DNA from: Psammoneis japonica
Taxonomy: Eukaryota
Reading direction: 5' to 3'
NCBI GenBank assembly: GCA_008632985.1
Contig: QPGO01000004.1
Coordinates: forward strand, 930,001 to 994,000
DNA: 64,000 nucleotides
Within the stretch, counting starts at the first letter, position 1; the number at the start of each line of letters is the position of its first letter. Positions 7,720 to 60,400 of the stretch are shown here, piece after piece. Under the pieces are notes generated by a model. That model saw nothing but the letters and a program-made list of their open reading frames with translations, was not told the origin of the DNA and ran no database searches. The position numbers and the translations under genes were made by a program.

Positions 7720-8560
7720 AGCAGACACATTTGTCGAGTGGCCGTCATCAGCGGATCCGGAGCTGACGCAATCGCGATCTGCTCGCATTCGAGCTGTGTC
7801 CATCGCGAACGCGTAGAGAAATTGGATGGGACTTTATTCTCCAATTGATCGATGGCCATTTCTTTTAAGTTGCGCTTTTTTGGTGATTGCCAATGTTGCA
7901 CTCTCTTTCTTGTTGCTCGTGGGGTGGCAGTGTGTGAGCCTTGCACAGATTGTGAACCTCAAAAGCTTTGGTTACAATTGGTCCACTCAAGTGCTCACTG
8001 GTTTGTTCACGTGCATGGTGAGAGTCTCATTGCCCTGGAGAATGGCCAACTTTTGGCACACTGTTGGTTGCGGTTCACGGAAGAACACTCCAGGCCTCGA
8101 TCTCTGCGTCCCACCCACCAAAGACATTTGGAACGCAGGTGTCTTCGAACTGTCTTCTTGTTTGTTTGGATTGATTGGCGTGTTGACATGTGCAACGTTG
8201 TGTCTCTTGGCCCTTGTTCCTTCTTTAAAAGCGCGCGACCAATCTGCTGCTGCTGTGAGCTTCAGGCAGAACATGGACTGGAGGTTGCCACATTTTTTTA
8301 AGATGAGTTTCACGTTTGCATTTCTGGCCTTCACACAGATGTCATTGGAGACCATCAGATTACGACGGGTGAATCCAGGGTTCTTTGCGGATGGAGAGTC
8401 TCCCGCCGACATGGTTGAGAAACACTGGAAAAGGCGCTGTTGCCGCATGTTGAATGTGTGGGAAAGCCAAAGATGAAAAACAGTGACGCTGAAATGGGAA
8501 TTGCAGAAAGTGACCTGGGCTGCTTTCTTGGACCAGCTTTGAGTTTGTTGCCTCTTTTTT
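7720..8560 (+). pseudogene. Degenerate membrane-protein gene, tandem copy A
   Basis: ORF 7826..8476 (NWSTQVLTGLFTCMVRVSLPWRMANFWHT...GLDLC.PPTKDIW) is hydrophobic and protein-like but depleted in Tyr codons. It aligns colinearly with 9115-9910. Confidence 0.6.
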
Positions 8561-10600
8561 ATTTCATCACAACCGTTGCCAAATTTCTCAATCACTGTCG
8601 TTTTTGTGTGTCTTCTTTTTGTTGGGGAGAAGCTGCAGTGCTTCTTCCCACAGCAGTGCGCGCACGTGAAGTTCACGTGAAATGTCACCCAGCAGTGTGG
8701 GGAGAGGGACAGACATGGAGCATGTGGGTGGAGCTGAGGAGTCATGCAGGCAGGGAAGGGGGCATGGGTTTGAGAGCGGGGTGAGTGAGCTGAGAGTGCA
8801 GTTTCGTAGAACAGCGTGTGAGTTGGTTGGCAAGGGATTTGGTGATGGCAAAGCTGATGCTTTGCAAACCCCATTGTGCAGGAGTTGTGGTGTGGTGGGT
8901 GAGACCAAAGCGCGCAGATGAGGTGATTTTCCACACAGCAGTGGAGGCAGGCAAAATGGCAGAGGGTGATGATTGGGCATGGGTGCAGAGGTGGCATGGG
9001 CAGTGGGGTGTTGGAAGCAGGATTCAGCAGTCCAGGGAGGGGCAGGTGGGGCAGCAATGGGGTGATCTTGATCTGCGCCAAAGAGGAGGCGGTGGGCAAA
9101 GCAGCCGGGAGCGCCAAAGACATGTTTGTTGAGTCTCACCATCATCAGCAGATCCAGAGCTGACACAATCACGATTGGCTTGCATTTGAGCTTTAGATCC
9201 ACCACAAATGCGCAGAGAAATTGGGTGGGACTGTGTTCTCCAATTGACCGATGGGCATGTGTGAGCCTCGTGTGGATTGTGAACATCAAAAGTTTTGGCA
9301 CACAGTTGGTCTGTTCAAGTGCTTGCTGGTTTGTTCATGCACATGGTGAGAGTCTCGTTGCTTTAGAGAATGGCCAACTTTTGGCACACTGTTGGTTGCA
9401 GTTTGCAGAAGAACACCCCAGGCCTTGATCTCTGCATCTCACCCACCAAAGACATTTGGAACACAGGTGTCCTTTTCGAACTGACTTCTTGTTTGTTCGG
9501 GTTGATTGGTGCACTGGCTTGTGCAATGTTTCATCTCTCATCTCTTGGCCCTTTTGTTCCTTTCTTCATCAAAAGCCTGCAACTCATCTGCTGCTGATGT
9601 GAGCTTCAGGCGGAACATGGACCAGAGGTTGTGACATTTTTTGAGATGAGTTTCACCTTCGCATTTCTGGCCTTCACATGGGTGTCATTGGAGAGACTGT
9701 CAGATCATGGCAGGCAAATCCAGGGTTCTTTGCAAATGGAGAGTCTCCTGCCAACATGGTTGAGAAGCGCTGGAAAAGGCGCTGTTGCCACAAGTTGAAT
9801 TGCGGGAAGGCTGAAGATGAAGACAGCAATGCTGAAATGGAAATTGCAGAAAGCAAGCTGCGCCATCACTTTCTTGGACTGGCTGTGAGTTTGTCACCCG
9901 TTTCATCACAAAGCAGACATTTTGAATCATGAGAATTTTTTGAGGAGCTTCACTTTTCCTTTTTTGTCCTTTGGTTGTTTTGCACCTCCTTCAACTTTGT
10001 TTGTGATGCTTCTGAAGCACAAGCATCTTTCTTGTTCTTGACTGAACCCTTGCTGTTGGGTGTGGTCGTGAGAAGCGCGCCATTGACAATGGTTTGATGA
10101 GTGCTTCCCTTCCCATCAACCGCTCTTCCGTGTGAGACATTTGAACCTTGTTTGTTGTTTGCACATCCAAAAATGCCATGTTGTCCAGTTCATCCAGCTT
10201 GCAATCAGCATCTTTTGCCAATGCTCTGCCACCAAGCTTCTGGCCATTCTTCTTTTTTCTTTTTTTTTCTTCTTCTTTGGCTTTGGCCGCCCTTTGGCTG
10301 CACTGAGATTCCTTGCTTTGAACAGTGTCCAAGGCATGAGCAGCTCTTTCTTTTGCCAAGTTACTCAAGAAACTGTTCATTCCTGACTTTGATGGATCAT
10401 TTGTGTTCACTTCCTTTTGAACTTTCTCTTCTTTGTCATCTTCTGAATCGAGGACGCTCCCGCCCAATTCCAACGCTGCAATGCTGACTTGGCCATTGCC
10501 CGCTCCTCCTCAAAGACATCATCATTGGAAGCATCACTTGCATCACATCTAGAGAGCTGTGCTTACTTCGACAAAAATCATGTCTCAATTCTTTTCTCTT
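7870..10600. other. CpG- and TpA-depleted block 1
   Basis: By-eye counts: 7921-8520 about 21 CpG / 4 TpA; 9301-9900 about 10 CpG / 1 TpA. ORFs here are Cys/His-rich and nearly Tyr-free (one Tyr in the 378-aa ORF 7987..9123). Boundaries are approximate. Confidence 0.85.
9115..9910 (+). pseudogene. Degenerate membrane-protein gene, tandem copy B (more eroded, frameshifted)
   Basis: Colinear with copy A (e.g. MANFWHTVGCSLQKNTPGLDLCISPTKDIWN; NPGFFANGESPANMVEKRWKRRCC). It is split over several frames, and many differences are CG>TG/CA or TA>CA/TG. Confidence 0.65.
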
Positions 10601-10847
10601 GGAACAAACTCATTTGAATGAATCGAATGATCCATTCTTCACCCTTTCGTCAGTCCGTCGTCTCTCCGATTTTGCGCGATTGGCTCAACGTTCGCGCGGG
10701 ATTGGCGGCAGATCGCAGGGCCACAAAATAAAAAAAGATGAGAAATGAGACGACGAGACGACAGCAATAAATCCATAACACAACAAAGCAAGTCCCCATC
10801 ACCGTCACGAAGATTATACGAGTGATCATTCTTTCGTTGTAGTAATC

Positions 10848-22687: not shown

Positions 22688-23299
22688 GTGTAAGGGAGAA
22701 TCTGGGACGTGTTTCGTAGAAACAGAATCTAAAAATCTAAATAATAGGGGGTGTTCTTTTTTCATAAGGTATTGTTTAAGGCTATCGGAAGCCATAACAT
22801 CTGGCTAGTGAAATACGTTTTTAAGCCTTGGTTTTTCCACTCACTAGCATCTTCCAAAATTGGGTGTCACTTCTGCGCTGTATGAGGTTCTAGTTATGAT
22901 ATCTAGCCTCACGTCAGTTCATCCTCAACGGTCACAACAATCTTGTGCACCAGAAATGTCTCTGGACAACCCACGAGAGCTCAAGAAGGTGTTGAAGCGC
23001 GTCATTCACTGACTCTGCCCAAACTGGGAATTTATGACTACAGTACAACCGCGACGTTCGCCGCCTCTACTCTAGTAGAGAACAACCGCTCGATGAGAGT
23101 TACACTGAGAATGCACGATTCAAGCGAAAGCTCGACCGACGCCAACTTGGTTGCGAACACGACCAACCAGGAAAGTGCCACCGCCGGGGATCACATTGAA
23201 TTCTCTTCTCCAGAAGACTCATGACTCGTAACCAGCATTGCGCTGCTTTTGTGGAATCCTCTCGTAATTAACATCATTGTGTGCCAAACTCTTTTGTAA

Positions 23300-24950
23300 T
23301 CATTTGTTGCTTCCATTGAACTGCTCCTTCGTGCTCTCTGTTCACTTGCTTTTGTTCCACCAGTGCAATGTTGCCACACTGTAGTTGATGAACCCACCAC
23401 AACCCAGGCTCTGTGTGTCACCCCTGCACCTGCACTGGCTGGTTGCAGATCTTTGCCAAAGTGGTCACTCCAATTGCTGCAAATGTGAAGGGACTCAAAG
23501 TGCAGCTCACATGCTTGCTGGAGGAGATGGCAGAGAAAAAAAAGGGGATTGGTGCCCACATGGTTGTCAGTGTGCACCAGGAATGGTCTGTGAATGGCTC
23601 AAGCACAGAATTGTCAAGTCCAAGGGAATCAAATTGTCTCACTCCCAATGAAGAAGAAAGTGCTCAAGATGCTCACACTGGAAGATGGCTCTTGATTCAA
23701 AAGACTTCCAGCATGAGAGTGCATGAAAGCAAGCTCAATGAGCTGCCACGCAGTGCAGCTCCCTTGCTTTTGAGATGACATTGAACTCAAACAACTCCCT
23801 CTTTGGTGAATGCAGCCATTCTCAAGACACAAAAGTGTGCTGCTCATTGGGCAAGCTGCAACTGATTTGACCAACCACAGATCTTGCAGAGGCCTGTCTT
23901 GCATTTTCAATTCAGCAGGTGCTGGGTTTCAAATGGCCACCTTGTGGGCAATCTTTGCACCAACCACACATGGGCGGCTCAGCTTTGCTGTGGAAAGTCA
24001 ACCAAAGCTGATCATTCAGATTTCCTCAATCATGGTGTGGAAATGAAATTGCCTGGTTTCCAGCAATGGCATCTGCTGCTTGTCTTGCCACCCAACAACC
24101 AACCCTTGTGTCAACATTTCTGTGGCTGTTGTTGCTTGCAGGCTTTGAGATGTCACTGGTGTCAGGGTGTGGATTGGCACCAGATGGGCTCACAGACAGA
24201 TTGTTTGATGTCAAACCAGCCAAGCTGGCACGCAAAGCTCTCAGCAGTTTCCTCTCTCCTTTGCCTGTTTCATTTTTGCAAATTTGTGCCTTTTTGCCTG
24301 TGTGCTTGTCAGCAACATGGCTGTCTCTGCTCTTCAGTGCCTCCACTTCCCCCTGCATCTTGTCAGCTGCTCTTTGCTCTTCGTGTGCCCCAGTTTTTTC
24401 CTGATTTTGCAGCTCAGCAGGCCCTGGATTCCACCTGTTGCCAGGCACTGCTCTTGCCAATTGTTGCTTTCAAAAGTCTAAATGAGACTTTTGTCTTGCA
24501 GCAGCTGACCATGTTCTGTGGCAATGCCGGGAGATCTGGCTGCTCTTGAGCAGCGCAGTTGGCGAGAGCGCTGAGAGCCAGGAACATCTTTGCACAAAAA
24601 GCACACGTCAAGTGTTCCTTGAAGGGCAAAGCTTTTCAAGCATTGCATTTCATTGTCAACTCCATCATGCTGTGTTGTGGATGTCTGCAATGTCACACAT
24701 GTTGTGGAGCCTGCAACATCCACTGCAATGCACTCACTCACACGGCGACACAGCCCCTCTCTCGATCTTGTGAGCAAAGTTGTGCAATCTTGTGTGGCTG
24801 TGGAGAGTTTTCAAAGCAGACATTTTTCATTTTGGCTTGTTTGCATTGGACTTGAGGACTGGGGCGCTGTCCCTGGGTCCATTGAAGATTGCAACAGCAC
24901 ATTGTTCACAAATCCGCTGAAACGAACTTGATCACAGCATTGTGAGAAGC
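23300..24950. other. CpG- and TpA-depleted block 2 (eroded sequence, origin not recognised)
   Basis: TA is almost absent after ~23390 (one survivor seen, gtctaaa ~24479), with TG/CA excess and many overlapping Cys/His-rich Tyr-free ORFs. Confidence 0.8.
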
Positions 24951-25230
24951 CAGCCAAGAGGGCGCGGTGGAGATTTGGTGACGTCAGCACATAAGCTGCC
25001 CATCCATCTACACAGTACCGGCATTACAGTATCGCGCATCGGACCACAGTTTTCCCGCCACAATGAGCGACCGCGCCGGGGCACGGCATAAAATGAGAGA
25101 TGATAGTGCTGTTTCTCCTGTTGGCAACTGTTGGTTTAGACTTGTGAGTTTTCAGAAGACTCGATAAGCTCCCAATAAAAGCAGGACTTTGGCAACAAAA
25201 TCTGGCTTCAATTTACCAGTCAACTCAAAG

Positions 25231-26699: not shown

Positions 26700-27440
26700 T
26701 CTTGGGCTTCCCGAATGCCAGACTTGAACACAGGGTGCACCACAGTCAACCAATTTCGTAACCTGTGTGTAGAGTGAGTCAAGTGCTCATCAACCAAATC
26801 AAACAAGTGCACCTTATCTTTACCAAGCAATTGTTGACTCTGGAGCAGATGGCCTTGACTTCTGCCTTGGTGCCACGATGTTGGGAAGACTTTCAGGTTT
26901 CCGAGTCGTGTCCGTGCACTGCGTCGTTGTGTGAGTCCCACAATTCCCACCATTAAGACCAAACGTATGATCCCATTGCAGCTGCCCAATCCAATCTCTG
27001 ACCGCTGCCTCCTGATCATGATGTCCGCTTGTCAACAGGTGTGTCTGCTGAGCTGTGTTCCATTCCACCGAAAACCTGCCATTGGAGATGTGATGCCACC
27101 CTGTCCCATCTTAAGAATGGAAGACAGAACAGATGCCGTGATGTGCATCATCTGAGTGTGCCAATTCTTCCCAGAACCAAGACTCCAAACTCAGCAACAG
27201 CATGTCATGCAAGGAAGGAGAGATGTGCACATTGTCACACTTTTTGTGCAGGCCCTGAAGGAATGTCCATCACCATTGTTCATCACCGGGGCAGTGAAGA
27301 ATGTGGTCCTTGTCTTCCATGGGAGACTGTCAATGGATGCAACAATCTGGTTGAAGTGTCTTGAATGAGAGTGCAGCACTGAAGCTGCTGCATGGGTCTG
27401 GCAAATTTCCAGGAGCAACCCCTTTCCCAGTTGCAGAGCC
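26700..27440 (-). mobile_element. Degenerate non-LTR retrotransposon, 3' end of ORF2 (zinc-knuckle region)
   Basis: Minus-strand translation PDCCIH*QSPMEDKDHILHCPGDEQW*WTFLQGLHKKC...LESWF, then TGWHHISNGRFSVEWNTAQQTHL. This matches the CxxC..ExxxHxxxC and IGW...GRFS.EW..Q..YL pattern of non-LTR ORF2 C-termini. In-frame TGA stops are present. Confidence 0.72.

Positions 27441-28060: not shown

Positions 28061-28064
<4 letters not shown>

Positions 28065-28111
<47 letters not shown>
28065..28111. repeat. (GT)n microsatellite abutting assembly gap
   Basis: Perfect GT repeat running into Ns. Confidence 0.95.
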
Positions 28112-41800: not shown

Positions 41801-41830
41801 TGACAAGAATGCGATTGCATTCGTTTTTTC
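38830..41830. other. CpG- and TpA-depleted block 5 (eroded sequence, origin not recognised)
   Basis: Very few CG. Surviving TA lies mostly in TTAA/CTAA contexts (39896 tttaaa, 40241 tttaaacttaaa, 40645, 40867). Abrupt return to TA/CG-rich DNA at ~41830. Confidence 0.85.
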
Positions 41831-42147
41831 CCTCTCCCCGCGCGCATCATTACTTTTTCAGATGCTCTATTGTATCGATACTGTACGATATTGACTCTTA
41901 GAGTACCGATAAAGGCAGACAGATGAGCGTGGTCGTGTATGGATATTCATGATGTTCATGATTATAGTATGGAAGTATTAATTATCTAATAAAGTACGTA
42001 TAAAATGAAATCATGACCGTTATCTTGCGAACGGCGTGTTTTGGATTTTGTATCCCAATCCGATGAGATGATGTTTCCCCCATTGCGAATTCGATTTCAT
42101 TGCCATCGAAAGAACCTACACTACCCATCACTAAGACGGCGGCAGCA

Positions 42148-45273: not shown

Positions 45274-48460
<3,187 letters not shown>

Positions 48461-49849
48461 TTACTAGGCGAACGGCTCATATCAAACCCACCGATGACTC
48501 CTTGCCTCGTCGTTGGTGTGGGAGGTGAAGGTTGTGCCTGGATAATGCAAATCTCATCGCGTCAATAACCAGTCATCCGTCATCGCAACCGATCTTCAAT
48601 CCAAATCTGGACGGACGGATGCGAGCGGGCGGACGGCGGACGGACGGATGTGCATGGCTGATTTATTTGCCGGCACAGCGCAGCGCAGTGGGCAGCTTCT
48701 CTGGATCCTCTCGCAATGCAGTTGATTGCATCTTTCTATCAAGTCTTTTTAGCTCGATCTTGCACTGCAATTGCAGTCAATGACATGGCTTGTTCCCCTT
48801 GCCTCTGTTTCCAGCACACCCAAAGCCATGCCGCCAAGTGCTTGTGCTGGTGTGTGCTCTGTCTCTCCACCTGTCTTGCCGCCCCAATCAAAAGAGAAAG
48901 GAGCACACCACGTGCTTGTTCAGAAATTTCCAAACCACACCATGTTTCATTGCCAGAAGTCCTCTCAAGGAACATGGCATCAGCTGCACCCAGCAAAAGC
49001 AGCTCTCGTTGTCTCTGTCCTCTCTTGTGAGAGAGAGAGAAAGAAAGGCTGGGAGCACCACGTGGAGAAAAAGGTTTGTCAATTGGAGAAGCTTGTTGAG
49101 CCAGATCAAAAACATTGTTCTTTCTTTTTGGCAAAGTTGGTTTTGCTGCAGCATCCACAGCTTGTTTGTCCTCTGTGGTTTGTCCATGATTCACCAGCAC
49201 ACCTCTTTTGTGCTCCTGCAAGCGCAGCGATGGTGGCAGTTGGAGCAGTGCAGAAAGTGGTGTTTCTGAGGTGCAGAAACAAGAGTTTGAGTTTGAATTG
49301 TCAGAAAAGCAAAGCTTTCACAAGTCTGTGACATGTTTCCATGCTCAACCAGAGCGTCACTTGCCAACAATTGAAATGTTCACAACTGTGCTGATTGTGT
49401 CCACAGATCTTTCAATTTGCGCGGATGTCAATTTTGTTTCTTGATGGTTTTCGATTGGATCCACATTTTCAACTTGTGAAGTTCGCACACATTTTTCCCC
49501 TGTTCTTTCCATTTGCAAGCTTTCTCCCTTTTGTTTTGCTCTGTTTCTGCCAAATCTGTCCTTCCACTGCACACCTCACAAAATGCCCTCCTGTTTGACA
49601 TCTGCCAATGACAATGGCACACCCCTGTTGCAATCCTCTCTGTCCTGGTTGGATGTCTGACAACAAGGACCAGGGTGCTCTCTGCTGACATTTTCAAAGG
49701 TGTCCCCAGTGTTCTTCTTTCTTCCATTTTGGCCTCAACCATGCAACTTCGTCTCCCAACCACTCCCTGAGCAGCAACGGTGCCTCAAGCTTTTTTGATG
49801 GATCAGGACCTCTCAATCATTCCCTTGAGATTCAAGCACCAAAGGATTC

Positions 49850-52800
49850 ATGTCCCTGTCTCTTCATGATGGTGATCTGTTGCACCTTTTTTTGTTTCCT
49901 CCTGTCAGCAGTCAAGAGTTTCAATCATCCACCCATGGCAATCTCCCCCCCAATGAACAAGGGGGAGATTTCGCCTTTAATGACAATGTCGTTGATTCTC
50001 ATGCATCAGTGGTGGATGAACTTGGCATCAGCTCCATTGCTCAAGACCCACCTGATGATGGTTTCTGCTGTGATGATGTGCTTTTTCTGGAGGAGGAGTT
50101 TGATGTTCTCTCAGTGCATCATTTTTGCTCATCCACTTCCCTCTCCAATGAGGACAACAACTGCAGTGTCCATGAAGAAGATGATTGCTTGCACTGCTTT
50201 GATGCACTGGATTTAGAGGAGATGGAAGAAGCTCAGCCATTGCAACCTCCACACATTCATGAAACCAACACCACCAAGAAACTTCACCCAGTGGAGGAAG
50301 AGTCGGTTTTGTGATGATGAAGAAGTGCTGTCTCTCTCACAGTTTGTGCAAGGCATTTCTCTCTTGGGCCAGACATGCCAAGGAGAGTGACCATGAGTGC
50401 AAGTTTTTGTCCTGCTCTGCCACCTTGCAACACATGAAAGCCAAGTGTGCCAGCAATCATGTGGGCCTGGAGCCCATTTGCTCCACTGTGCATGTGGGGC
50501 CCAAGTTCCCCCCAGTGCATGTGTGCCAATTTCCTTTCTGCATTGTGTGAGAAGGGTGTTCCATGATCCCCAGGTTGTCAAAGTTATGTCAGTGGTTGCA
50601 CCAAGAAAAGTGCTGCCCCAAAACAAACAAGCACATTTGTGGCTCCCTCAATGCTGAACACTGGTGGAAGCAAGCCAAGTGTGATCTCAAATGTGCCCTT
50701 GCTCAACTGGTCCTTGCTGAACTGGGCAATGGCTGCCCTTCTTCCAGGTCACACTTTGTTTGCCCCATTGTCCTGTTTGACGATTTCACCTTTTGTGACA
50801 ATGCAGGTTGTCTGCAAGCACAACACGTTTCTTGTGACATTGAGCAATTTGAGTGACAAGTGTTGCCACAGGCACTCCCTTTGGCCAACACTTGAAATGG
50901 TGCCACCATGTCCAAAAAACAGCAATGAGTGCATTGCTGACTGAGAGCTGAAGCTGAGACAGGAGAAGCACATCAAGTTTTTCCACGTCATGTTGCAGGA
51001 GACATTCGCTGAGTTGCTTCAACTGTCAAAGCAAAAGACTTGTTTCCCAATTGTGGTGCCATCTCTTGGCTTTGCCCATCTCCACTTTTGATTGTGCTGC
51101 ATGACAATTGGAAACATGAAAGGCTCCCACTTGAGCAACATGTCTTGGATGAATGGGGGCTGTGACACACCACAGAGCATTGGTGACAATCCCTTGTTTG
51201 GCTGCAATTTGGTGGAACAAGCTGCCATCCAGGGGACAGTGGAGGCTGCCACACCAGTCATGGAGGAAAGGCATCATGGCAAAGTGACTGCAGTTTGTGA
51301 ATGGTGCAAGGACATTTCACAGCACTTTGCTCATCCCATGTTTTGGGACATCCCTCATGGCAGACCAAGGTGTGGCATGTTTGGCATGCTTCCCTGAGAA
51401 CTGTTGTGTGCCTTTTGCTTGGGCCTTTGCAACCATCTGCTTTGCGCCTTCTTCAACCCATGCCAAGTCCCAGAAAAAATGTTGTCACAGCATTGCAACC
51501 ATTTTGGTGATGGGGAATGCACAATGGACAACCAACCTTCCATCACCTTCAAGGAGCACCCCAAGCTCTTTGACAAAGCTGAGTTCAAGAGACACTTCAG
51601 AGTTGTTGCACATGTGCCCAGAAGGCAAAGTGATTGGAAGATGCCAAGAACTCCATTTGAGAACAATGGCATTGACCAGACTTGTCCAACCAGCCAAGAG
51701 TGTCCTGGTTTGGTGTTGCTTTTGATGTTTGCTGCATTGAAAGGCATGCTTTCAAAGGAAGATGAAAGCCTTGAGCTGCTGGAGAGTCACTTTGCCCACC
51801 TGATGTTCACATCTTTGGGATTGGACAGAGCATTGCCCTGCTTTCTCACTCCACTCCAGAAATGCATTCTCCAGTGTCTCAAATTGTTTCAATTTGTTGT
51901 CAGCCCATTCCCAGAGCATCATTCTTGGTCTGGTCTTCACATGTCCAAGTTCCACGGTTTTCTTCACTTTCTGTTTTACACTCATCAGTGTGGCAATGCC
52001 AGCAATTTTTTGGTGAAGGCACAATGATTTGATTTTTCACAATTTCTGCTGTGCACAAAATGTGCAGCATGCTGCGCGCATGTCACCAAAAGGTGGCAAC
52101 ATGAATGTGGTGTGTTGTTGCAATGTTTGCCACATCAGCGATGTGTCCCAGAGTCTCATGTCCTTGCACACATTCAGTTTGTTAAGTTTAAAAATGTGTT
52201 CAGTCATGGCCATGAAAGTCCCCACAAGTGACCTCCATTCAACAGCAAAACATCGCGCCAACACCAAGGTCAGTTTTTTTACAGTCATTTTGTGCATTTG
52301 ACCATTGAACAATCAAGAGCTCATTTTTTTGGGGGGGGGGGGGGGGGTTCTTTGCATGTTTGTGTTCACAATGATGCAATTGATTGACATGTCAAGTGCC
52401 TGTTGCAAAGTCATCCTCAGGTTGTCATCATTGTCAGCATTGATGAGTGGCAATTTGTTGTCCAAATTGCAGTCAATTGCACAGCCCCAATCTGTCCAAC
52501 ATTGCACTGCTGTGCACCACTTCTGCACATGCACCTTAAGATGCTTTTGAAACAACCTGCCAAAACACAAGTTGGCAAGATTGTCTTGACCTTGACATGA
52601 AGAATTGCCACTGTGAGGACCTTGTGGTGAGGGAGTTGGAGGAGCATCTGATGGAGGTGGGTTGGCTGCATGCACAAGAGGCAAGGCTCCTGTGTCTCAA
52701 TCATCAAGTCATCGATGCACAGACCCCATTGCTGGATTCAAACTACACAAATGGCAACAATGCCACATGGTCTCTAAAATGTGGAGACAAACAGCTGCAG

Positions 52801-53370
52801 ACACCATCACATCTGTTTGTCCCAGGCTGTTGTGACAATGACTGGGTGACATCTTTGCTGGATCATGCAGAACAGAACAAAGCCTTCCCCATTGATGTTG
52901 TGAACTGTCACTTTGGATTCAATGCTCTGGGCACAGCTGATGGTGAACATGATGTTCTGAGATGTCACACAAACTTTCACTTGCATCCGTGGGAACAAAG
53001 GAGTTGGCGCAACTGGGCCATGGCGAAGTGGGAAAAGAACAAAAAGAGCCATTTGGTTGCAGCTCATGTGTTGTTGTGGGCAACCTTGGATGGAACAGAA
53101 ATCCACAGTTTGTGCAATTTAATTGCTTGAGAGCTTCACACCAACCCAAGATTCTCTCTTGACCTTTTTCATGGGAGATGAAACAGAGTCTGAAATCAGA
53201 GTTGTTGAGGCTTTGGATGTGTTGTCTGCTGCCTTTGTTCTTCCATCAACAAGGTTGCCACTCAACCCATTTCCCAACAGTTCAGAAAATGCCACTTGCT
53301 TTGTCATTGTTCCACCAAGAATTGACTGGTGCAATGCAACTAATTCCTTGATGTGGAGGAATGTTTGGAC
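49850..53370 (+). mobile_element. Degenerate Plavaka-type DNA transposase gene
   Basis: Ordered motif remnants across frames: SHSLCKAFLSWARHA; ICGSLNAEHWWKQA; FVCPIVLFDDFTFCDNAGCL; GMLP*ELL.AF.LGL; RRQSDWKMPRTPF..GI...GLVLLL; HMSKFHGFLHF...CGNASNF; VLRCHTNF..PW..SWRNWAMAKW; FVIVPPRIDW. Family assignment is from remembered motifs, not a search. Confidence 0.65.
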
Positions 53371-56241
53371 ACTGAACATTTGGATGAATGCTGGTGAACC
53401 AATGAGTGTGCCACAACTTTGCAATGTCAACTGACCGGAAACTGTCAAAGTGCAATGTTTGGGTCTGCCATTTCCAAGGAAAGAGACCCAAGGATGCCAA
53501 AGATTTGGTGCTGTTGTCAAGAGGTTCAATCAACAGCAAGTCACCCTGTGAATGTTTTTCCATGATCTGTCATGGGTCAGGAGGAATCCATGACAGACTC
53601 ATCCAGAGAGAATTCTTGCAAGGGCAACGCAGCACTTGTGGTGTTGTCTCCATTGCAATCATCACTCAATGAATCATCAACACAAAATGCATCTTCTTCT
53701 TCCAAGTGCAACTGCTCTTTGTCAACAGTGTCCTCTTTGACAACAATCTCAGCCACAGATGCTGCATTTGCATCAGATTTTTCATTCTCATTGCTGCCTG
53801 TTGCCACAGTTGCCTTTCCAGCAAAAACAATTGTGATGGCACCAAACATGCATTTGCTTTGTCACACAATGACTGCAGCAAGGGGGCCATGTTTCCCCCC
53901 CCCAATGTGCATTGTAGCTGGGGTGCAGCAAGCATCCTGGGCAGTTGGCTTTGAGTTCTGATGTGATGAACTGAAGCAGCTCAGATTTTCCAATGCTTTT
54001 TCCAAAGACACACCAAGCAACAACACATTGGAGGGGTTGCAGTGTTGCAACAGAGCTTTTGTGCACCCTTTCCATGCTGCTTGAACAACCTCCTTGTGTT
54101 GTTTCATGGAAAAGGCAACTTTTGGCATTGTGTGTTTCTTTCCTGTCTTCTGGTTGTGCCCAACTTCTGTGTTGACAATGCCGCTGCACATTGGAAAAGG
54201 TGACACATCAACCAGAGCAGCACCTCTGTTCTTGGTTGTGCCCAGCATCTGGAGTTTGTTGTTGGCTCCATCTGTTCACAAATCAACTGTGTCATTTTCT
54301 GGGCTCCACAGCATGGTGTCTGTTTGATGGCAGAGAAAGCCTCTGCATCCATCTCCAGTGGGTCCAAACAACCATTGGGTGCATGAAAATCTCCTGCAGG
54401 TGCTGTTTTCATCACCCGCCAAAACTGGTCTGTCCCTTTAAACACAGATTTCCTCTTGCCATTGGAAAGCTTGTTCAACACCTTTTCTGGCAGCAGCCAT
54501 CCCTCCCCATGCAACAAACAGTGGGCTGGGTTGACATGATCTAGAAACAAGTCATTGCAGTCAATGCCAAGTTCTTTTTCCATTGTTGATTTTCCCAAAG
54601 AGTGTGGTGGTGGTGATGCTGAATGAGACTCTGCAAGTGCAACCAAATTTGGTTTTCATTCAGTGACCTGCCCATGACATGACACCTGCTTGCCAACATC
54701 ACAGAATCAATCTGCGGAACTTTCCTCACTTTGCAGGATGGCCACACACTGTGGAGTTCTTTGTGTGTTTGTTCAAGGAAATGCTCCAAAACAGTGGTGT
54801 GTCAACAGCAGAGCTCAACACAGAAGAGAGTTCACTTGGGCTGTCCATTGTTGGTGCAGCTCACTTTTGATGCTGTTTGGCAAGGGGCAAACAACAGCAA
54901 CAAAGCACAAGCAACACCCACCTCAGCCGGCATTGCTTTTTGTTTTTGGTGATGTGAATTGCAAAGCAGCCCCAGCAAACAGTGTCATCCACCACAAGCA
55001 CGTGGCAACAGCCACCCTGTTTTCAACATCAACAATTTTGTGTTACACCAAGCCACAAACAAATCTCATTGAGATCAAATTTAGTGATCAGACAAGTTGT
55101 TGTGTGCAAGTTCTCTCAAAACAACTCTGGTTGAGAGTTGTTCAAAAAAAAAAAGATGCAACCATCAATTGACCATGGTTGATCACACTTTTAGGTGGGT
55201 GCAATGCAGCTGCCACAAAAGACAGAACAAACCACAGGTTGGGTGTGGAGCTGATTGTGGTTTGCATGGGTGAGATCATTGGCAAACCAGTGCTGACAGA
55301 TTGCAATCGTGGGCCAACTGATTGTTGATTCCATGGGTTCTGTTGCTGGCAAACTCTAAAAAAATTGCATCCTGTCATCCCTCTTCCTGGAGGAACTGCC
55401 AAGCCAGGCAAAAGTTGCCAATCAACAAGAAATGAACAAGATGCTTGGTCTCTCTGGAAAACCTGTGCAGATCATTTCTCTTTGCTGGCAACTTTCTCTT
55501 GTGCCCCACTCTCATGTGGGATGCCAGCCCATTGATGATGGCAAAGGGACCTCATTCTTGATGGTGCAATTTTCCATTCTGTCCTTCAAATTCAATGTCT
55601 TGGATGTCATGGGCAGTGCACCATCCCCTTCCAAATTCTCAAAGAGTTGGGCATTGATGAAACACTGGAAATGCATCATGACAGCATGGTGAGTGGGGAA
55701 ATTTTCCTGCTCACCATGCCTTTCCACAATGCAGCACCTGCACTGTTGAGAGTTCTGCTCATGATGATGGCAATTCATGCAGCTGCCGCCGATTGGAACA
55801 AGGGTGTCAATCCTTTCTTGTGTGTTGTTTCAAAATTGGTCAGTGGCAAATGATGTTTTTTCAGATGGGTGTGTGCAATGCTGGTCCTCAAGCAGTTTTC
55901 TCCACACCTGCATCAGTTGTGCAAGAGTGCAATCATTTTTGTTTGGACTTAGAAACCTCATCCTGCACACAATGAACTTTGGTGGTTCTAGACAACAAGA
56001 TGGTGGGTTGTGACAACAACACACAAATTGTGGCAATGAGTGCTTTGGATCATGTCACAAATGTTTGCCATCAAGTGCATCACACTGTGTTTTCTGAAAA
56101 GGGTCAACCAGCAAGTTCGAATGAAAAATGTCCAAAAATCCTGCTGCATGGTTTTTACGTTCTTGCTGGCATCTTGTGAGATTGTTTGAATGACAGTCAT
56201 TTGCCACATGGTCAGAACTCTCTTGTTGTCATCTTGTTGAG

Positions 56242-56466
56242 ATTGTTGCAATGAAACTCATGTGTTTGTCAAACAGTCCATGGATGATGGATTGGCAACA
56301 GAAAAATGCCAAATGTTGACATTGTTGCAACGAAGCTCATGTGTTTGTCAAACAGTCCATGGATGATGATGGAATTGGCAACAGAAAAAAACCAAATGTT
56401 GACATTGTTGCAATGAAGCTCATGTGTTTGTCAAACAGTCCATGGATGATGATGGATTGGCAACAG
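56242..56466 (+). repeat. Tandem repeat, ~80-bp unit x 2.8
   Basis: Units start at 56242, 56321 and 56404 (attgttgcaa[t/c]gaa[a/g]ctcatgtgtttgtcaaacagtccatggatgatg...gcaacag). Confidence 0.92.
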
Positions 56467-59400
56467 GACTTGCCTTGCTCATTTGAACAACTCATTCAAC
56501 TGTGCAAGCAAATCAACCAAATTCCTTGTGTTCTTGTGCCAAAGCCAGAGTGGATGGATGAGTGTGACAAAAATGGCAATTGTCTGTTCCTTGCTTGGTG
56601 CACCAAACAGAACTTGCTGATGGTGCATGTGGCAGACAAGGTGCATCACAAAAGCAATGCTGAACCTTGTTCATTCATGACAAAGATTGGTGACAGACCA
56701 AATCAAATTCAAAAGAACCAGAATGAGCGGCATGACCTGACGAGTGCAAGCTCTGATGAGGATTGGATCTGTCTGTGTGACAAGTTAGATGGGATGGAAC
56801 CCATTCATGATTTTGGTGAGACATCCAAAATTGTGCAATTTAGAAAAGACAATCACTCTGGTGACAGCACTCACTCTGAAGTGCAGCTGCAGAAAAGTGA
56901 CAAGATTGCTGCAATTGGAACATTGCTGAGATCTGGACCAAAACATCAAACTCCAGCAGATCTCTGAGCCTTGGACAACAATTTCTCATTGTCCCAGCCA
57001 AAATCCTTGGGCTCCATTTGGTCCTCATGCATCTTGTCATTGTCCTGCACAGAATGTGTGGGAAATCAACTTGTTCCACTGGCACCAGGTTGCTGTTGCC
57101 TGCTCCTTCATTGTGTGACAAAAAATCAAGAATTGTCCAAGCTGGAATGTCCATTGCCAGAGCTCTGGCACCTGCAGCAATGGTGACAGGCAGCTGGCTT
57201 GTTTTGTTCCTCTGAATTGTTGTTTGACAAACAACAGGCAAGCCTGTGCCTGGAATCTGGGTTTCTGGAGATTCATTCTCAGGCCACCATCCAACACCCT
57301 GTTGGATGTGATGACAATTTTGTGATGCTTCATAAATGATTTTGCAATTGAGCACATTCTCAAGCACTGTCCTCAGCAGCCAGATTGCTGCTTTCAGGTG
57401 CAGCTGGCACATTCTTCATGTTTTGCAGGCTGTCAATCAAATCATCACAGTGTTCCTGGAACACATTGGCAAGAAGAAACTTGACAGTGATCAACTGTGC
57501 AAGTGCCTCCTGCACAGCACTCTCCATTGTGTGGGACACAGTCAGCCCGTTGTTCTTGTTGCAGCATTTGGCAACTTTGTTGTGGTTCTGCTCATGGTCT
57601 TTCACTGGCATTCAAGTGTAACACAGGTGGAGAGTGGCAGCAAGAGGCAAGAAGAATTCCACTCACAAAAATGGAGCCATTTGTCCAAAGTCGCAGGTGG
57701 TGCAGAGATGGACTGCATCATGACAGCAAGCAACAGCTCTGTGTTCCTCATCCATTAATTTGACACCAACAGAAGAGTTGTTGAACAAGTTTGCATGAGT
57801 GTGCCAACCTGTCAAAGACAGATGGACAAAAACACTGTCATGAGCAGCAAAGAGAACATTCAGAGGAGAATTAAAAAAAAAGCATCACCTTCAATGCCAG
57901 AATTGGAGCCACAGAAGCCATGACATTTGTTGAAAATGCTTTGCAGGGTGGTGGGAAACAAGGCACTGCAGGCCTTTGATGGCAGAGTGTGATCAATTTG
58001 TGATTAAAGGTGAGCTGCTGAGGTGTTTTGTTCTTGACTCATGAAGTTCAAGGCCAAGGGGCCTGCCTTCCCCCAAAACCTTTTACAAAAGGCAGGTTTG
58101 TTGCATTTTTCTTCAGACACTTGTCCTTTTCCACAAAGAAAGGTTCCCAAACCATCTTTTCAAAGGGACATTTGGAGTTTACACTGGTGTCCAGGAGAGA
58201 CTGCAAATTTGTCATGTTCCCCATCTCTTGTTTGGATGGAAAACCAAGAGAGAAAACAAGAGCATGACCTGCCTTTGAGGTGCTCACTTTCCTCACATCA
58301 TTGCTCTCCAAAGTGATCATTTCACTGGCATGAAGGGTTTGTTTCTGGGCTTTCTTGAGAGAGGCGATTGTTTGGTTGGCAGCTGCTGTTTTTGCCCCTC
58401 TGGCATTGCACATTTGCTGCAGCAGCTTGCACATCTTTTCCTGTTGGTTTTTGTAAATGCCGCATGCTTTTGCCAGCAAAACTACAGCCAAATTTTGCAT
58501 TCCTCATGGGACAAGCTGTTTCAGAAGAGAGTGCATGTGGTGTGGTGCTCAGAGGCTTCGAGCAGCTCAGCAGTCTTGCAGAAAGGGAGTTCATTGCAGA
58601 GCTTGAGAAATTCAAGATCTTTGGGTGGAATTGCCAGAGAATGTGGGTCATCCACCCCGTCATCAGATGAGTGGCTTCTTCATTGACAGAGGCAGCAGCA
58701 GCAGCAGTGGATCCTGGGTTGCCAGCCTGTGGAGGAGCAGCTTGGGCCAAAGAGCCTGGATCTCGTCCCTGAGGGCTGATCTTGGTGCCTTGCCTTGGCT
58801 GGGGTCAAGCTTGAGCTTGAGTTCCGCAAGTCCTGCCTCCACCACCATGGCCATCAGTGCCAGTGGCAGGAGTGTTGCGACCTCCACCTTGTTGGGTCCT
58901 CTTTTTTTGATGGCATGATTGAGCAACACCAAGTCACAAAAGGGTGGTTGTGAGGGTGTCAAGCAGGTTGGAAAAGATTGAAGTCCTGGAACAATTGAAA
59001 GAAGATGGAGTGTGCAAGCATGAGTGTAAAAATTTCAATCTCGACAAGAACACATCAATGTGACAGTGTGAGATGTTGACCAACTGCAAACACACGTGAT
59101 GAATCACAAATGACTTGATGATTCATTCAAGTTGTTTCAAAACATTCAAATCTTCAAAATGAAACATGAACATGGTAAAACAGAATTGCAGCTTAAAAAG
59201 CAACAGTGATGGGAATCAACTGACAGACAGGCTTGACAGCACCACCAAGCTGTTGGCAACAACACTTTGCGGTGTGCACTGCTCTCAATGCCAGCTCTCC
59301 TTTGAGTGTTCATTCAGGATGCAAAAGACTTGAGTGAAAATGTTTTGGTGTCTGCTGGTGTGCCCTGGCATGTGGTGTCAAGGTCTCCATGATGAGAGCA

Positions 59401-60400
59401 CCTTTCTCTGGGCTCTCTTCTTTTTTCATTGGGGTGGGTGTCACTCTGGATTTTGCCATGGCTGCTGTTGCTTCTTGTTCTTTGGCAGCTGCTTGAGATT
59501 GACATCAGCTTCTGATTGACAACAGCCTCCACAGGTGGCATGTCAAGCACCATGCTTTTGATGGTCATGATGGAGAACAAGCACTGATTTTTGAGGCTGG
59601 GGAGCAGCCAGAAGACATTGGAGCCCCAACACACTCATCTCTGACCTTCTCCCATTGTTCAAGAGGCACACACATGAATTCAAAGACACTGTCAGTGGTG
59701 AGTGGAGAGCAGCACCTCATGCAGTTGAAAGGGCCAGGAGCATTTGTTGTGTGGCACCACATCTTGTTTGCAAGTTGTCGAGCTGTGAATTCAGGGAGTG
59801 CAGCAAACAGTGCTTCTGGATTGCCCACATGTGCCAAACATTGGTGCAAGATGCAAGTTGCATTTCCCTGTCCATCCTCCTTTGACTTGCATCCATTGTT
59901 TGCTTTTTGCTTGAGATGATGAAGACTTCACCAGGTGGGCCAAAACATGTGTGGCTTCACAGAGCATGGAGGGGAGGAGAAAAGTGAGCACAAGTGTCTG
60001 GTCAAGCCCAGAGCTCTCATCTGTGTGTCACCTGTTTGACACTGCCCCAGGGTGCAACATGCACAACAAGTGTGAATGTTCTTGTTTACGTGCTGGCAAC
60101 ATGAGTGAGGCTGCCAGCAGAGGAGCCTCACTGCTGATCAGCAATGCATGAGCCGAACTGCCTAGAGTTACAGCAGTGCGGGCACCTCCTTTGGAATGCG
60201 CTTCGTGAATGAGCCGTCATTCACGGTCATTCAGACCATAACTACCTAGAACCTCCATAAGTTTGAAGTTTTCCCCTTTACGAGCACTCTGGGCTTACTA
60301 ACTGTATCTACATAGCCCTACTTCTACCGGTAGTTTCAAAACTCTTCTATATAAATCACTTGGGTGGACTTGCACTACTTCGATGATTCGCTCGCTTCCT

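What the first reader, a model, noticed from the sequence alone, without database searches (positions are those of the whole stretch)
7870..60150. Candidate RIP-like hypermutation system: six blocks purged of both CpG and TpA, converging on TpG/CpA
Seen: blocks at about 7.9-10.6, 23.3-24.95, 26.8-30.6, 33.1-37.4, 38.8-41.8 and 48.75-60.15 kb lack CG and TA (51001-51600: 2 CG, 0 TA; intact gene 25321-25620: ~19 CG, ~10 TA in half the length). AA/TT/AT remain abundant, so this is not a general GC drift. The blocks coincide with dead transposons and duplicated or pseudogenised genes, and intact genes between them are untouched. Established: CG methylation of diatom transposons and 5mC deamination explain CG>TG/CA; fungal RIP turns CpA into TpA and so CREATES TpA. 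Inference: a second, context-specific A>G/T>C mutator acts on TpA in silenced or repeated DNA. Candidates are Pol-eta-like error-prone patch repair (A>G at TA/WA, as in somatic hypermutation), adenine deamination, or T:G-mismatch repair biased to C:G. I know of no named system with this signature, but a literature check is needed.
Basis: partly seen in the sequence, partly recalled or inferred. Interest (0 to 1): 0.92.

Follow-up and report, generated by a model that had tools for sequence, protein, structure and literature searches.

The report
TA-erasing hypermutation in silent diatom DNA
Six stretches, about two fifths of this diatom DNA window, have had nearly every TA and most CG steps rewritten to TG or CA while the genes between them are untouched; this is the footprint of a targeted DNA-mutating process reported only once before, in an unrelated alga.

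Summary
Six TA-poor blocks (27,199 bp) hold 83 TA where 1,092 are expected, and 312 CG where 1,511 are expected. CA and TG rise so that the total of pyrimidine-purine steps stays at 24%.

The change was acquired in place. Block 1 is a tandem pair of host DUF2985 pseudogenes. In them, tyrosine codons conserved in 60 outgroup proteins now read TGY or CAY, and arginine CGN codons read TGG, CAG or CAA. Contigs built from a public run reproduce block 6 and show that it is repeated.

TA loss looks saturated (about 0.3% of steps in every block) and reaches up to 810 bp beyond the CG-poor cores, so the two losses are separate processes. TTAA is nearly refractory, whereas ATAT, ATAG and ATAC are wiped out.

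No transposon domain was found, but the Pfam control failed, so the "dead transposons" claim stays untested.

The TpA signature matches one 2026 preprint on Bigelowiella natans. Five literature searches found nothing for diatoms. This scan has already noted the same process elsewhere in this genome.

The chemistry is not shown. It could be adenine deamination or thymine oxidation.

The parts
7867..10728 (.). TA-poor block 1 (11 TA, 77 CG in 2,862 bp). It holds a tandem pair of DUF2985 pseudogenes.
   Evidence: TA-only segmentation; per-100-bp counts
8677..10448 (.). CG-poor core of block 1. The TA-poor domain overshoots it by 810 bp on the left and 280 bp on the right.
   Evidence: CG-only segmentation
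7723..8548 (+). Copy A of the DUF2985 gene (open frame 7817-8473). It is TA-eroded but still CG-rich (6 TA, 23 CG in the frame) and is probably a pseudogene.
   Evidence: Pfam DUF2985 E 9.4e-07; conserved Tyr codons now TGC; upstream homologous part lies in another frame with a stop; TA/CG counts in the frame
9118..9894 (+). Copy B of the DUF2985 gene. It is 81% identical to copy A, with in-frame stops, and has lost both TA and CG.
   Evidence: blastn; alignments; step table; tblastn with P0072 E 5e-21
23298..24991 (.). TA-poor block 2 (2 TA, 19 CG in 1,694 bp). Content unidentified.
26822..30798 (.). TA-poor block 3 (12 TA, 47 CG). It contains a (GT)23 run at 28065-28111 and an assembly gap at 28112-28456. 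The CG-poor core is 27027-30601.
33065..37230 (.). TA-poor block 4 (11 TA, 79 CG). The CG-poor core is 32914-36623.
36624..37230 (.). Margin of block 4 that has lost TA (3 left) but keeps normal CG. The open frame 36613-37212 here has 0 Tyr, 13 Cys and 7 His in 200 codons.
38763..41850 (.). TA-poor block 5 (10 TA, 27 CG in 3,088 bp). It has step-like edges.
48751..60162 (.). TA-poor block 6 (37 TA, 63 CG in 11,412 bp). It is repeated elsewhere in the genome.
   Evidence: In one search the summed contig depth is 64-374 in the block against 59 in the flanks, and 254 contigs were laid (78 at 99% or more, 46 at 95-99%, 130 at 90-95%).
53580..54275 (-). Possible remnant of a coding region inside block 6. 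It shows period-3 purine/pyrimidine signal and a 232-codon frame with one stop. No relatives were found.
   Evidence: period-3 power 6.4-9.5 against a null 99.9th percentile of 6.3; phase; no homologues
56235..56466 (.). 83-bp tandem repeat, 2.9 copies, inside block 6.

Best explanation
The six blocks are stretches of non-functional DNA: one tandem pseudogene pair, one repeat family, and four of unknown origin. They have been mutated where they lie by two context-specific transition processes that both end in TG/CA.

(1) A fast, saturating process turns TpA into TpG or CpA, on both strands about equally. It is confined to discrete domains whose edges are sharp to within tens of bases. It has an extended preference: TA flanked by a 5' T or a 3' A is spared, and TTAA is almost refractory.

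(2) The slower, familiar decay of CpG to TpG/CpA occupies a core nested inside most TA-poor domains.

Shown: the direction of change, the restriction to domains, the separation of the two processes, and the flanking-base dependence.

Inferred: the domains are silenced chromatin. The CpG loss comes from 5-methylcytosine deamination. The TpA loss is enzymatic; the likeliest chemistry is deamination of adenine to inosine in DNA by an ADAT2/TadA-like deaminase, as proposed for Bigelowiella natans. I put about 0.8 on a targeted in-place TpA mutator and about 0.4 on adenine deamination as its chemistry.
For: Mass balance: CG+TA+CA+TG make up 24.0% of steps in the blocks and 23.6% outside. With the later segmentation the figures are 24.0% against 24.0% (non-ORF) and 23.5% (ORF). 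TA and CG were therefore converted, not deleted.

Direction, from copy A against copy B over 725 aligned columns:
- Of 35 CG steps in A, 28 are CA or TG in B.
- Of 6 TA steps in A, all 6 are CA or TG in B.
- 104 of 124 differences are transitions.

Outgroup polarisation with 60 proteins. There are four columns with consensus Tyr. Copy A reads TAC, TGC, TGC, CAG and copy B reads CAC, CAC, TGC, TGT. At column 494 (Tyr in 95% of outgroups) A has TGC and B has CAC, so one ancestral TA was resolved independently in each copy. Conserved Arg columns in B read TGG, CAA and CAG where A still has CGG.

Nineteen steps are CA in one copy and TG in the other, which is the expected trace of independent erasure in both copies.

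Repeat copies or haplotypes in run X1 differ from the assembly by adjacent TG>CA doublets at 51726-7 and 52828-9. They also differ at 4 window CG sites that read TG/CA and at 1 window TA site that reads CA.

Control: non-coding DNA outside the blocks is TA-rich (o/e 0.65) and CG-normal (1.06).

Edges are step-like. At block 5, for example, TA sits at -4 and -1 and the next is at +395.

Separate processes: residual TA is 0.12-0.38% of positions in all six blocks while residual CG ranges from 0.55% to 2.7%, and the TA-poor domains overshoot the CG-poor cores by up to 810 bp.

Flanking context: TTAA is 24 of the 83 residual TA in the blocks against 61 of 1,496 outside (p 5e-13). ATAT is 0 against 105, ATAG/CTAT 0 against 165, and ATAC/GTAT 1 against 223.

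Precedent: de novo mutations restricted to TpA, 230 of 231 of them A>G or T>C, arising at about 6e-7 per site per generation in two silent integrated viral regions of B. natans.
Against: No enzyme, base modification or chromatin mark could be examined, because no whole genome is held.

TA is palindromic, so A>G cannot be told from T>C.

Silencing is inferred only. Apart from copy A, copy B and the repeated block 6, the content of the blocks is unidentified. No transposon or viral domain was found in any block, so it is not shown that the targets are foreign or repeated DNA.

Related copies of block 6 that could be laid show no TA where the window has CA/TG. For that block, amplification of an already TA-poor sequence therefore cannot be excluded.

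Run X1 may be the sample from which the window was assembled, so its agreement is not independent.

CA<>TG doublets between copies A and B (19) exceed what ordinary transitions followed by fast erasure would give (about 7 by my arithmetic). That excess fits independent erasure in both copies, but it is a small sample.
Confidence: 0.75

Rival explanations
1. The process is the same and happens in place, but the damaged base is thymine. A TET/JBP-type dioxygenase that acts on 5-methylpyrimidines would oxidise T at TpA (to 5hmU or 5fU) in silenced DNA, and mispairing with G or faulty repair would give T>C. The same enzyme class acting on 5mC could link the TA and CG losses.
For: Sequence data cannot separate T>C from A>G at a palindromic TA. 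Both TA and CG are palindromic pyrimidine-purine steps whose pyrimidine carries, or can carry, a 5-methyl group, and both are lost in the same domains. In dinoflagellates, also members of SAR, TET/JBP homologues make 5hmU that is enriched on repeats and helps to silence transposons. That paper cites older work showing a preference for TA and TC (PMC11572971, passages read). That 5-formyluracil pairs with G is recalled, not checked.
Against: Base-resolution mapping in Breviolum found no sequence preference for 5hmU (PMC11071213, passages read). No TC depletion beyond the coding/non-coding difference is evident: TC o/e is 0.96 in the blocks. Neither a TET/JBP gene nor 5hmU is shown for this diatom. 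The TA-poor domains extend beyond the CG-poor cores, so the two losses are not strictly coupled.
Confidence: 0.2
2. The blocks are foreign or transposon DNA that was TA- and CG-poor before it arrived. On this view the composition is intrinsic and not the result of mutation in place.
For: Five of the six blocks have no identified origin. All related copies of block 6 that could be laid are also TA-poor at the listed sites.
Against: Block 1 is a host gene family, and outgroup proteins show that TA and CG codons were lost after duplication. The total of pyrimidine-purine steps equals that of the host DNA. TG<>CA doublets between near-identical copies imply that TA or CG was present when the copies diverged. 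I know of no genome with TA o/e of 0.05 (recalled).
Confidence: 0.04
3. The signal is a sequencing or assembly artefact. Heavily modified bases at CpG and TpA would be misread as transitions, so the DNA really has TA and CG in the blocks.
For: The library type of the only run that holds the sequence is not on record. Misreading of modified bases as transitions is known for some long-read base-callers (recalled).
Against: Contigs built independently from run X1 at a word depth of about 59 match the block exactly over 617 and 782 bases, and with 1-4 differences over four further pieces of 586-779 bases. The same run differs from the assembly at 10 of 4,389 flank positions, so it is not a simple copy. 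A misread would not give stop codons, indels and ordinary transversions in copy B.
Confidence: 0.04
4. The cause is error-prone patch repair (Pol eta at WA motifs), GC-biased gene conversion, or biased mismatch repair in late-replicating DNA.
For: A:T>G:C is the main Pol eta error, and GC-biased conversion favours G:C alleles (both recalled).
Against: AA, the other WA motif, is not depleted (o/e 1.25 in the blocks against 1.13-1.14 outside). AT and TT are retained. G+C is unchanged (0.479 against 0.463-0.486). Transitions dominate (104 of 124). The specificity extends to tetranucleotides.
Confidence: 0.04
5. The editing took place on RNA. ADAR-like A-to-I editing of transposon transcripts would be fixed in the genome by reverse transcription and re-insertion.
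For: ADAR favours U 5' of the edited A (stated in Mettrop et al.). Hyper-edited retroelements are known in animals (PMC4866542, search listing and abstract only).
Against: Both strands are hit about equally (TG 3,176 against CA 2,874 in the blocks). Block 1 is a tandem duplicate of a host gene that was mutated where it lies, with the two copies resolved differently. No reverse transcriptase was found. AA is not depleted.
Confidence: 0.03

Closest known systems
TpA-restricted hypermutation of integrated NCLDV and virophage DNA in Bigelowiella natans (Mettrop et al., bioRxiv 10.64898/2026.01.13.699255; abstract, Results and Discussion read)
   Same: Only TpA is hit and the products are TpG and CpA. 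Changes are transitions only. The process is confined to discrete domains beside normal DNA. TA-poor, CA+TG-rich clusters are its long-term trace. The enzyme is unknown.
   Different: - Lineage: here a diatom (stramenopile), there a rhizarian.
- Degree: here erasure is near-complete (TA o/e 0.05), whereas the NCLDV region there has rho 0.45.
- Targets: here a host pseudogene pair and unidentified repeats, with no viral or transposon domain found.
- CpG: here there is co-located CpG decay; 'CpG' does not occur in the preprint's main text.
- Flanking bases: here a flanking-base rule with TTAA spared; none of 'flanking', 'context', 'trinucleotide', 'logo' or 'TTAA' occurs in the preprint's main text.
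- Rate: no de novo rate was measured here.
Repeat-induced point mutation (RIP) of Neurospora and other fungi
   Same: It is transition hypermutation that inactivates duplicated DNA and spares neighbouring single-copy genes. Both copies of a duplication are hit.
   Different: RIP makes C>T changes, chiefly CpA>TpA, so it creates TA and lowers G+C (recalled; also stated in the finding). Here TA is destroyed, CA/TG accumulate and G+C is unchanged. Dependence on duplication, on a RID-type methyltransferase and on the sexual cycle could not be tested.
Decay of methylated CpG in diatom transposons and repeats (5mC deamination)
   Same: CG>TG/CA loss in gene-free blocks. This accounts for the CpG half of the observation.
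   Different: It cannot remove TA. The CG-poor cores are smaller than the TA-poor domains, and CG loss is incomplete and variable (0.55-2.7% residual) while TA loss is uniform. Methylation was not measured here.
5-hydroxymethyluracil marking of repeats by TET/JBP homologues in dinoflagellates (PMC11572971; passages read)
   Same: A base modification of A:T pairs is placed on repeats for silencing in a SAR lineage. Older work cited there reports a preference for TA.
   Different: It is a modification, not a mutation. In the passages I read, no TA erasure is reported. There is no evidence for 5hmU in this diatom.
APOBEC and ADAR editing of retroelements in animals (PMC4866542; search listing and abstract only)
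   Same: A deaminase-driven cluster of transitions is recorded in the genomic copies of mobile DNA.
   Different: Those marks are strand-specific, arise on cDNA or RNA intermediates, and have other sequence contexts. Here both strands are hit and a tandem gene duplicate is affected.

Membership tests
TpA hypermutation as in Bigelowiella natans | Mutations fall on TpA only and give TpG or CpA (A:T>G:C transitions) | tested here: met
   6 of 6 TA in copy A are CA/TG in copy B. Six of 8 conserved-Tyr codons are now TGY/CAY. TA o/e is 0.05 while AA, AT and TT are retained.
TpA hypermutation as in Bigelowiella natans | Confined to discrete domains, with adjacent DNA at the normal rate | tested here: met
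   Six segments with step-like edges. Outside them TA o/e is 0.56-0.65.
TpA hypermutation as in Bigelowiella natans | Targets are integrated viral or other foreign DNA | tested here: inconclusive
   No viral or transposon Pfam family in any block, but the scan also missed the known copy B. Block 1 is a host pseudogene pair. Block 6 is repeated.
TpA hypermutation as in Bigelowiella natans | De novo rate about 1000 times the genome background, active in only some lines | not testable with these tools
   Only an indirect bound is available. In contexts without a 5' T or 3' A there are 13 TA against 3,230 CA/TG. At equilibrium this implies TA loss at least about 250 times the ordinary transition rate that makes TA (my arithmetic).
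Fungal RIP | C:G>T:A transitions, mainly CpA>TpA, that raise TA and A+T | tested here: not met
   TA falls to o/e 0.05, CA rises to 1.88, and G+C is 0.479 against 0.463-0.486 outside.
Fungal RIP | Acts only on duplicated sequence | tested here: inconclusive
   Block 1 is a tandem duplicate and block 6 is repeated in run X1. Blocks 2-5 have no copy within the window, even in a purine/pyrimidine alphabet, and no genome is held.
Fungal RIP | Needs a RID/DIM-2-type methyltransferase and acts before meiosis | not testable with these tools
   No genome and no experiment.
Methylated-CpG decay | CG>TG/CA loss | tested here: met
   28 of 35 CG in copy A are CA/TG in copy B. Conserved Arg codons read TGG, CAA and CAG in B. 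CG o/e is 0.20.
Methylated-CpG decay | The blocks carry 5-methylcytosine | not testable with these tools
   No methylation data.
Pol eta / somatic-hypermutation-type A:T mutagenesis | WA motif (AA as well as TA), with transversions as well as transitions | tested here: not met
   AA o/e is 1.25 in the blocks. 104 of 124 differences are transitions.
ADAR-type editing fixed by retrotransposition | A>G on one (transcript) strand only, through an RNA copy | tested here: not met
   TG 3,176 against CA 2,874 in the blocks. The two tandem gene copies resolve the same ancestral Tyr codon to TGC and CAC.

The most novel reading that the evidence does not exclude
The TA erasure is the mutational footprint of a base-editing or base-modifying genome defence shared across the SAR supergroup (diatoms, rhizarians and perhaps the 5hmU system of dinoflagellates). 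It marks any silenced DNA, including host gene duplicates, at both palindromic pyrimidine-purine steps (5mCpG and a modified TpA). It has a tetranucleotide specificity in which TTAA is spared. Its enzyme would be a natural double-strand-DNA adenine or thymine editor.
Probability: 0.2. Interest if true: 0.9.

Novelty: new member of a known kind. Interest (0 to 1): 0.72.

Why it matters
Two points would stand if this is confirmed:
- Diatoms would join a rhizarian alga in having a targeted A:T>G:C mutator, the mirror image of fungal RIP. That suggests an old and widespread eukaryotic way of destroying silent or invading DNA.
- The enzyme would be a natural DNA editor with a tight sequence rule, which is of interest for base-editing technology.

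There are also practical consequences. TA-poor, TG/CA-rich composition can flag silenced DNA in diatom genomes. It distorts gene finding, because only TGA stops remain and long false frames appear. It hides transposons from homology searches.

The window adds four things to the precedent. It shows near-complete erasure. It shows that host pseudogenes are hit. It separates TA loss from CpG decay. It gives a testable flanking-base rule (TTAA spared) that can be checked directly in the published de novo mutations of B. natans.

Tried and rejected
Whole genome: none is held, so there could be no genome-wide scan, no transposon consensus and no enzyme inventory.

Pfam on the blocks:
- 221 open frames of 70 aa or more (94, 127) gave only DUF2985 in 7817-8473. 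Six weak hits below their curated cut-offs (zf-FCS, Hormone_1, TRAPP14_C, CycT2-like_C, DNA_ligase_A_N, FGAR-AT_N) are taken as noise.
- All six frames were read through stops as X for block 6, blocks 2, 4 and 5, and block 3 plus the copy-B part of block 1. The result was 0 families.
- The positive control failed. Copy B, which tblastn finds at E 5e-21, was missed. These blanks are therefore weak evidence.

Hidden repeats: a self-comparison in a purine/pyrimidine alphabet, which is blind to transitions, found only the A/B pair and small local repeats.

Possible coding remnant at 53580-54275(-): no homologue among 422 candidates, and the Atlas hits are all below 0.9.

Rfam, tRNA and tandem-repeat scans found nothing that explains the blocks.

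Earlier notes searched by place (near, relatives) and by sequence gave nothing for this window. A word search for TTAA plus TpA found no note holding both.

Sequencing runs: no RNA holder is listed. Run X2 gave no cover inside block 6. Neither is evidence on expression.

A search of metagenome contigs for less mutated relatives was not run. The best protein match to this organism's UTP10 is only 47% identical, so near-identical DNA is unlikely to be in the collections.

Strand bias: TG exceeds CA on the + strand in all six blocks, but T also exceeds A there, so I could not assign the bias to the mutator.


Full report
**Observation.** The window is 64,000 bases with 346 N. A 1-kb table already shows stretches where CG and TA nearly vanish and TG+CA roughly doubles. 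A two-state model run on TA positions alone gives six TA-poor segments: 7867-10728, 23298-24991, 26822-30798, 33065-37230, 38763-41850 and 48751-60162. Together they cover 27,199 bp. The same model run on CG alone gives 8677-10448, 23264-24914, 27027-30601, 32914-36623, 38820-41811 and 48713-60153.

The blocks hold 83 TA where 1,091.6 are expected at the outside rate, and 312 CG where 1,511.2 are expected. The longest TA-free run wholly outside the blocks is 176 bp. Inside, runs reach 1,392 bp.

**Mass balance and controls.** In the blocks the observed/expected ratios are TA 0.05, CG 0.20, CA 1.88 and TG 1.75. AA (1.25), TT (1.20) and AT (0.83) are retained, and G+C is 0.479. The four pyrimidine-purine steps together make up 24.0% of all steps in the blocks and 23.6% outside. 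With the later segmentation the figures are 24.0% against 24.0% in non-ORF DNA and 23.5% in ORFs. TA and CG have therefore been exchanged for CA and TG by transitions, not lost by drift in base composition. Being non-coding is not the cause, because the 12.7 kb of non-ORF DNA outside the blocks has TA 0.65 and CG 1.06.

**Edges, and two processes.** The edges are step-like. At the left of block 5, TA occurs at -87, -79, -66, -63, -59, -49, -36, -4 and -1, and then not until +395. At the right of block 6 the last TA is at -75, followed by +1, +7, +77 and so on. The blocks fill whole intergenic spaces and stop 120-350 bp short of the neighbouring open frames.

TA loss and CG loss do not coincide. 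The TA-poor domain overshoots the CG-poor core by 810 bp at the left of block 1, by about 200 bp on both sides of block 3, and by 607 bp at the right of block 4. Residual TA is 0.12-0.38% of positions in every block, whereas residual CG ranges from 0.55% (block 6) to 2.7% (block 1). I read this as a fast, saturated TA process and a slower CG process.

**Block 1 shows the direction of change.** A blastn self-comparison finds 7926-8548 matching 9254-9894 at 81% identity over 645 bp, and 7723-7859 matching 9118-9258 (alignments). Copy A carries the frame 7817-8473, which matches Pfam DUF2985 (E 9.4e-07, 29.2 bits, cut-off 22). Copy B lies in the CG-poor core and has in-frame stops.

Over 725 cleanly aligned columns there are 124 differences, of which 104 are transitions, and 78 of those keep a pyrimidine-purine step. 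Of 35 CG in A, 5 stay CG, 16 are CA, 12 are TG and 2 are other in B. Of 6 TA in A, 4 are CA, 2 are TG and none stays. In addition, 9 CA in A are TG in B and 10 TG in A are CA in B.

To polarise the changes I searched with the only close homologue (P0072). That search found 291 relatives at E up to 0.001, and I aligned the best 60 with both copies. Four columns have a consensus Tyr. Copy A reads TAC, TGC, TGC and CAG, and copy B reads CAC, CAC, TGC and TGT. At the column where 95% of outgroups have Tyr, A has TGC and B has CAC. One ancestral TAY codon was therefore resolved to TG in one copy and to CA in the other. This also explains the 19 CA<>TG doublets as independent erasure in both copies after the duplication.

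Conserved Arg columns read TGG, CAA and CAG in B where A still has CGG. Copy A is itself damaged. Residues conserved in 90% or more of the outgroups are replaced (for example G>V, F>S, C>S, C>V and two Y>C). The part homologous to the N-terminal region lies in another frame and contains a stop. Copy A has lost TA (6 left in the frame) but keeps CG (23). Block 1 is thus a tandem pair of pseudogenes caught at two stages.

**Block 6.** One public run (X1) holds 84% of the sampled words of 49000-58000. Its contigs, at a word depth of about 59, match the block exactly over 617 and 782 bases, and with 1-4 differences over four further pieces of 586-779 bases. In the flanks the run differs from the window at 10 of 4,389 positions. 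Summed depth in the block is 64-374 against 59 in the flanks. A total of 254 contigs were laid: 78 at 99% or more, 46 at 95-99% and 130 at 90-95%. The block therefore belongs to a repeat family.

Among the 24 listed differences inside the block there are two clean adjacent TG>CA doublets (51726-7 and 52828-9) and one complex triplet. Four window CG sites read as TG or CA, three window CA sites read as CG, and one window TA reads as CA. Adjacent doublets are far too frequent for independent hits. By my arithmetic about 0.05-0.2 are expected, so the copies still had TA or CG when they diverged. No listed difference shows a TA in a related copy. X1 may be the sample from which the window was assembled, so this agreement guards against an assembler error, not against every artefact.

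**What the other blocks are.** This remains open. No transposon or viral Pfam family was found in 221 open frames of 70 aa or more, nor in any of the six frames of all six blocks read through stops as X. The same read-through scan also failed to find DUF2985 in copy B, which tblastn detects at E 5e-21, so the scan is insensitive to mutated sequence.

A self-comparison in a purine/pyrimidine alphabet, which transitions cannot disturb, shows no further repeats within the window. The period-3 signal in that alphabet is at the null level over most of the blocks (median 1.14 against 2.49 outside). It peaks at 53.4-54.3 kb (6.4-9.5, against a null 99.9th percentile of 6.3). The implied minus-strand frame, 53580-54275, has one stop in 232 codons but no homologue and no useful Atlas neighbour. 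Rfam, tRNA and tandem-repeat scans add only an 83-bp repeat and a (GT)23 run next to the assembly gap.

**Flanking-base rule.** The 83 surviving TA are not a random sample. Counts in the blocks against counts outside, with survival among steps that share the same flanks, are:

| Context | In blocks | Outside | Survival |
|---|---|---|---|
| TTAA | 24 | 61 | 0.59 (p 5e-13) |
| CTAA/TTAG | 19 | 138 | 0.21 |
| GTAA/TTAC | 20 | 193 | 0.14 |
| ATAA/TTAT | 7 | 205 | 0.05 |
| CTAG | 4 | 89 | 0.06 |
| CTAC/GTAG | 7 | 218 | 0.04 |
| GTAC | 1 | 99 | 0.01 |
| ATAC/GTAT | 1 | 223 | 0.006 |
| ATAG/CTAT | 0 | 165 | 0 |
| ATAT | 0 | 105 | 0 |

A T before TA (equivalently an A after it) protects, and both together almost abolish erasure. 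The main text of the B. natans preprint has no flanking-base analysis. Among CG, GCGC survives best (0.52 against 0.12-0.20 for most other contexts).

**Rate estimate (inference).** In contexts without a protecting flank there are 13 TA against 3,230 CA/TG. If TA is made from CA/TG by ordinary transitions and removed by the mutator, equilibrium implies removal at least about 250 times faster than production. The same arithmetic for CG in block 6 (63 CG against 2,619 CA+TG) gives about 40-fold, in the range usually quoted for methylated CpG (recalled). The preprint measured about 6e-7 against 3.5e-10 per site per generation.

**Mechanism.** The following are shown:
- conversion in place of TA and CG to TG/CA;
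- restriction to domains;
- action on both strands (TG 3,176 against CA 2,874);
- action on both copies of a duplication;
- a tetranucleotide preference.

The following are inferred. The domains are silenced chromatin, and the CpG loss is 5mC deamination. The TpA loss is enzymatic, most simply deamination of adenine in DNA to inosine by an ADAT2/TadA-like enzyme, as Mettrop et al. propose.

Because TA is palindromic, T>C chemistry is equally compatible with the data. In dinoflagellates, TET/JBP homologues place 5hmU on repeats to silence transposons, and older work cited there reported a preference for TA and TC. A base-resolution map in Breviolum found no preference.

Pol eta, GC-biased conversion and biased mismatch repair fit poorly: AA, AT and TT are retained, G+C is unchanged, and transitions dominate. 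RNA editing fixed by retrotransposition is contradicted by the strand symmetry and by the tandem gene pair.

**Comparison and novelty.** The organism is a diatom. The best UTP10 matches are diatom proteins at 47% identity or less. The TpA signature is the same as in the B. natans preprint, where 230 of 231 mutations in two integrated viral regions were A>G or T>C and all of those fell on TpA. That text mentions neither diatoms nor CpG.

Five full-text searches found no description for diatoms or other stramenopiles. Subscription journals are not covered, and the preprint's supplements were closed. Earlier notes of this scan report the same process in other pieces of this genome, including transposon LTR pairs and a copia pol gene with Tyr>Cys/His. 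Two of those notes led me to the preprint, which I then read myself.

I file this as a new member of a kind known from a single preprint. This window adds four things: near-complete erasure, host pseudogenes as targets, the separation of TA loss from CpG decay, and the TTAA-sparing rule.

**Limits.** I had no genome, no methylation or chromatin data and no de novo mutations. The origin of blocks 2-6 is unknown, and the read evidence comes from one run that may be the source sample.

Noticed in passing
window 45274-48454 (-): A bacterial-type GH2 beta-galactosidase (LacZ-like domains) is split over two open frames. Contigs of run X2 skip 47100-47184, as if an intron had been spliced out, so X2 may be an RNA data set although it is listed as 'DNA?'. 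X2 also skips 61575-61665.
   Followed up: partly
all six blocks, + strand: T exceeds A on the + strand in every block (for example 967 against 622 in block 5 and 858 against 614 in block 1), while outside T and A are nearly equal. The skew is too large to come from asymmetric TA erasure alone.
   Followed up: no
blocks, CG contexts: Surviving CG are enriched in GCGC (47 of 312 in the blocks against 90 of 2,071 outside), and to a lesser degree in ACGT and CCGC/GCGG.
   Followed up: no
window 36613-37212 (+): A 200-codon open frame lies in the TA-poor, CG-normal margin of block 4. It has 0 Tyr, 13 Cys and 7 His, against 2.5%, 2.3% and 2.5% in the pooled genes. It is either a recently eroded coding region or a chance frame in stop-poor DNA.
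   Followed up: partly
window 9364: In copy B the Trp codon conserved in 97% of outgroups reads TAG (TGG>TAG). An ordinary G>A change has made one of the few TA in the block, which illustrates how residual TA can be regenerated.
   Followed up: partly
window 28065-28456: A perfect (GT)23.5 microsatellite abuts the 345-N assembly gap inside block 3.
   Followed up: no
window 7313-7370 vs 8553-8610: A second short homologous piece lies upstream of the two DUF2985 copies. Copy A keeps TA at three sites where copy B has CA, TG and TG. Within copy A's unit the TA-poor domain therefore starts only at 7867, not at the start of the duplicated unit.
   Followed up: partly
window 10848-12416, 21344-22687, 43758-44765: Three long open frames (522, 447 and 335 aa) with normal composition have no Pfam family.
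   Followed up: no
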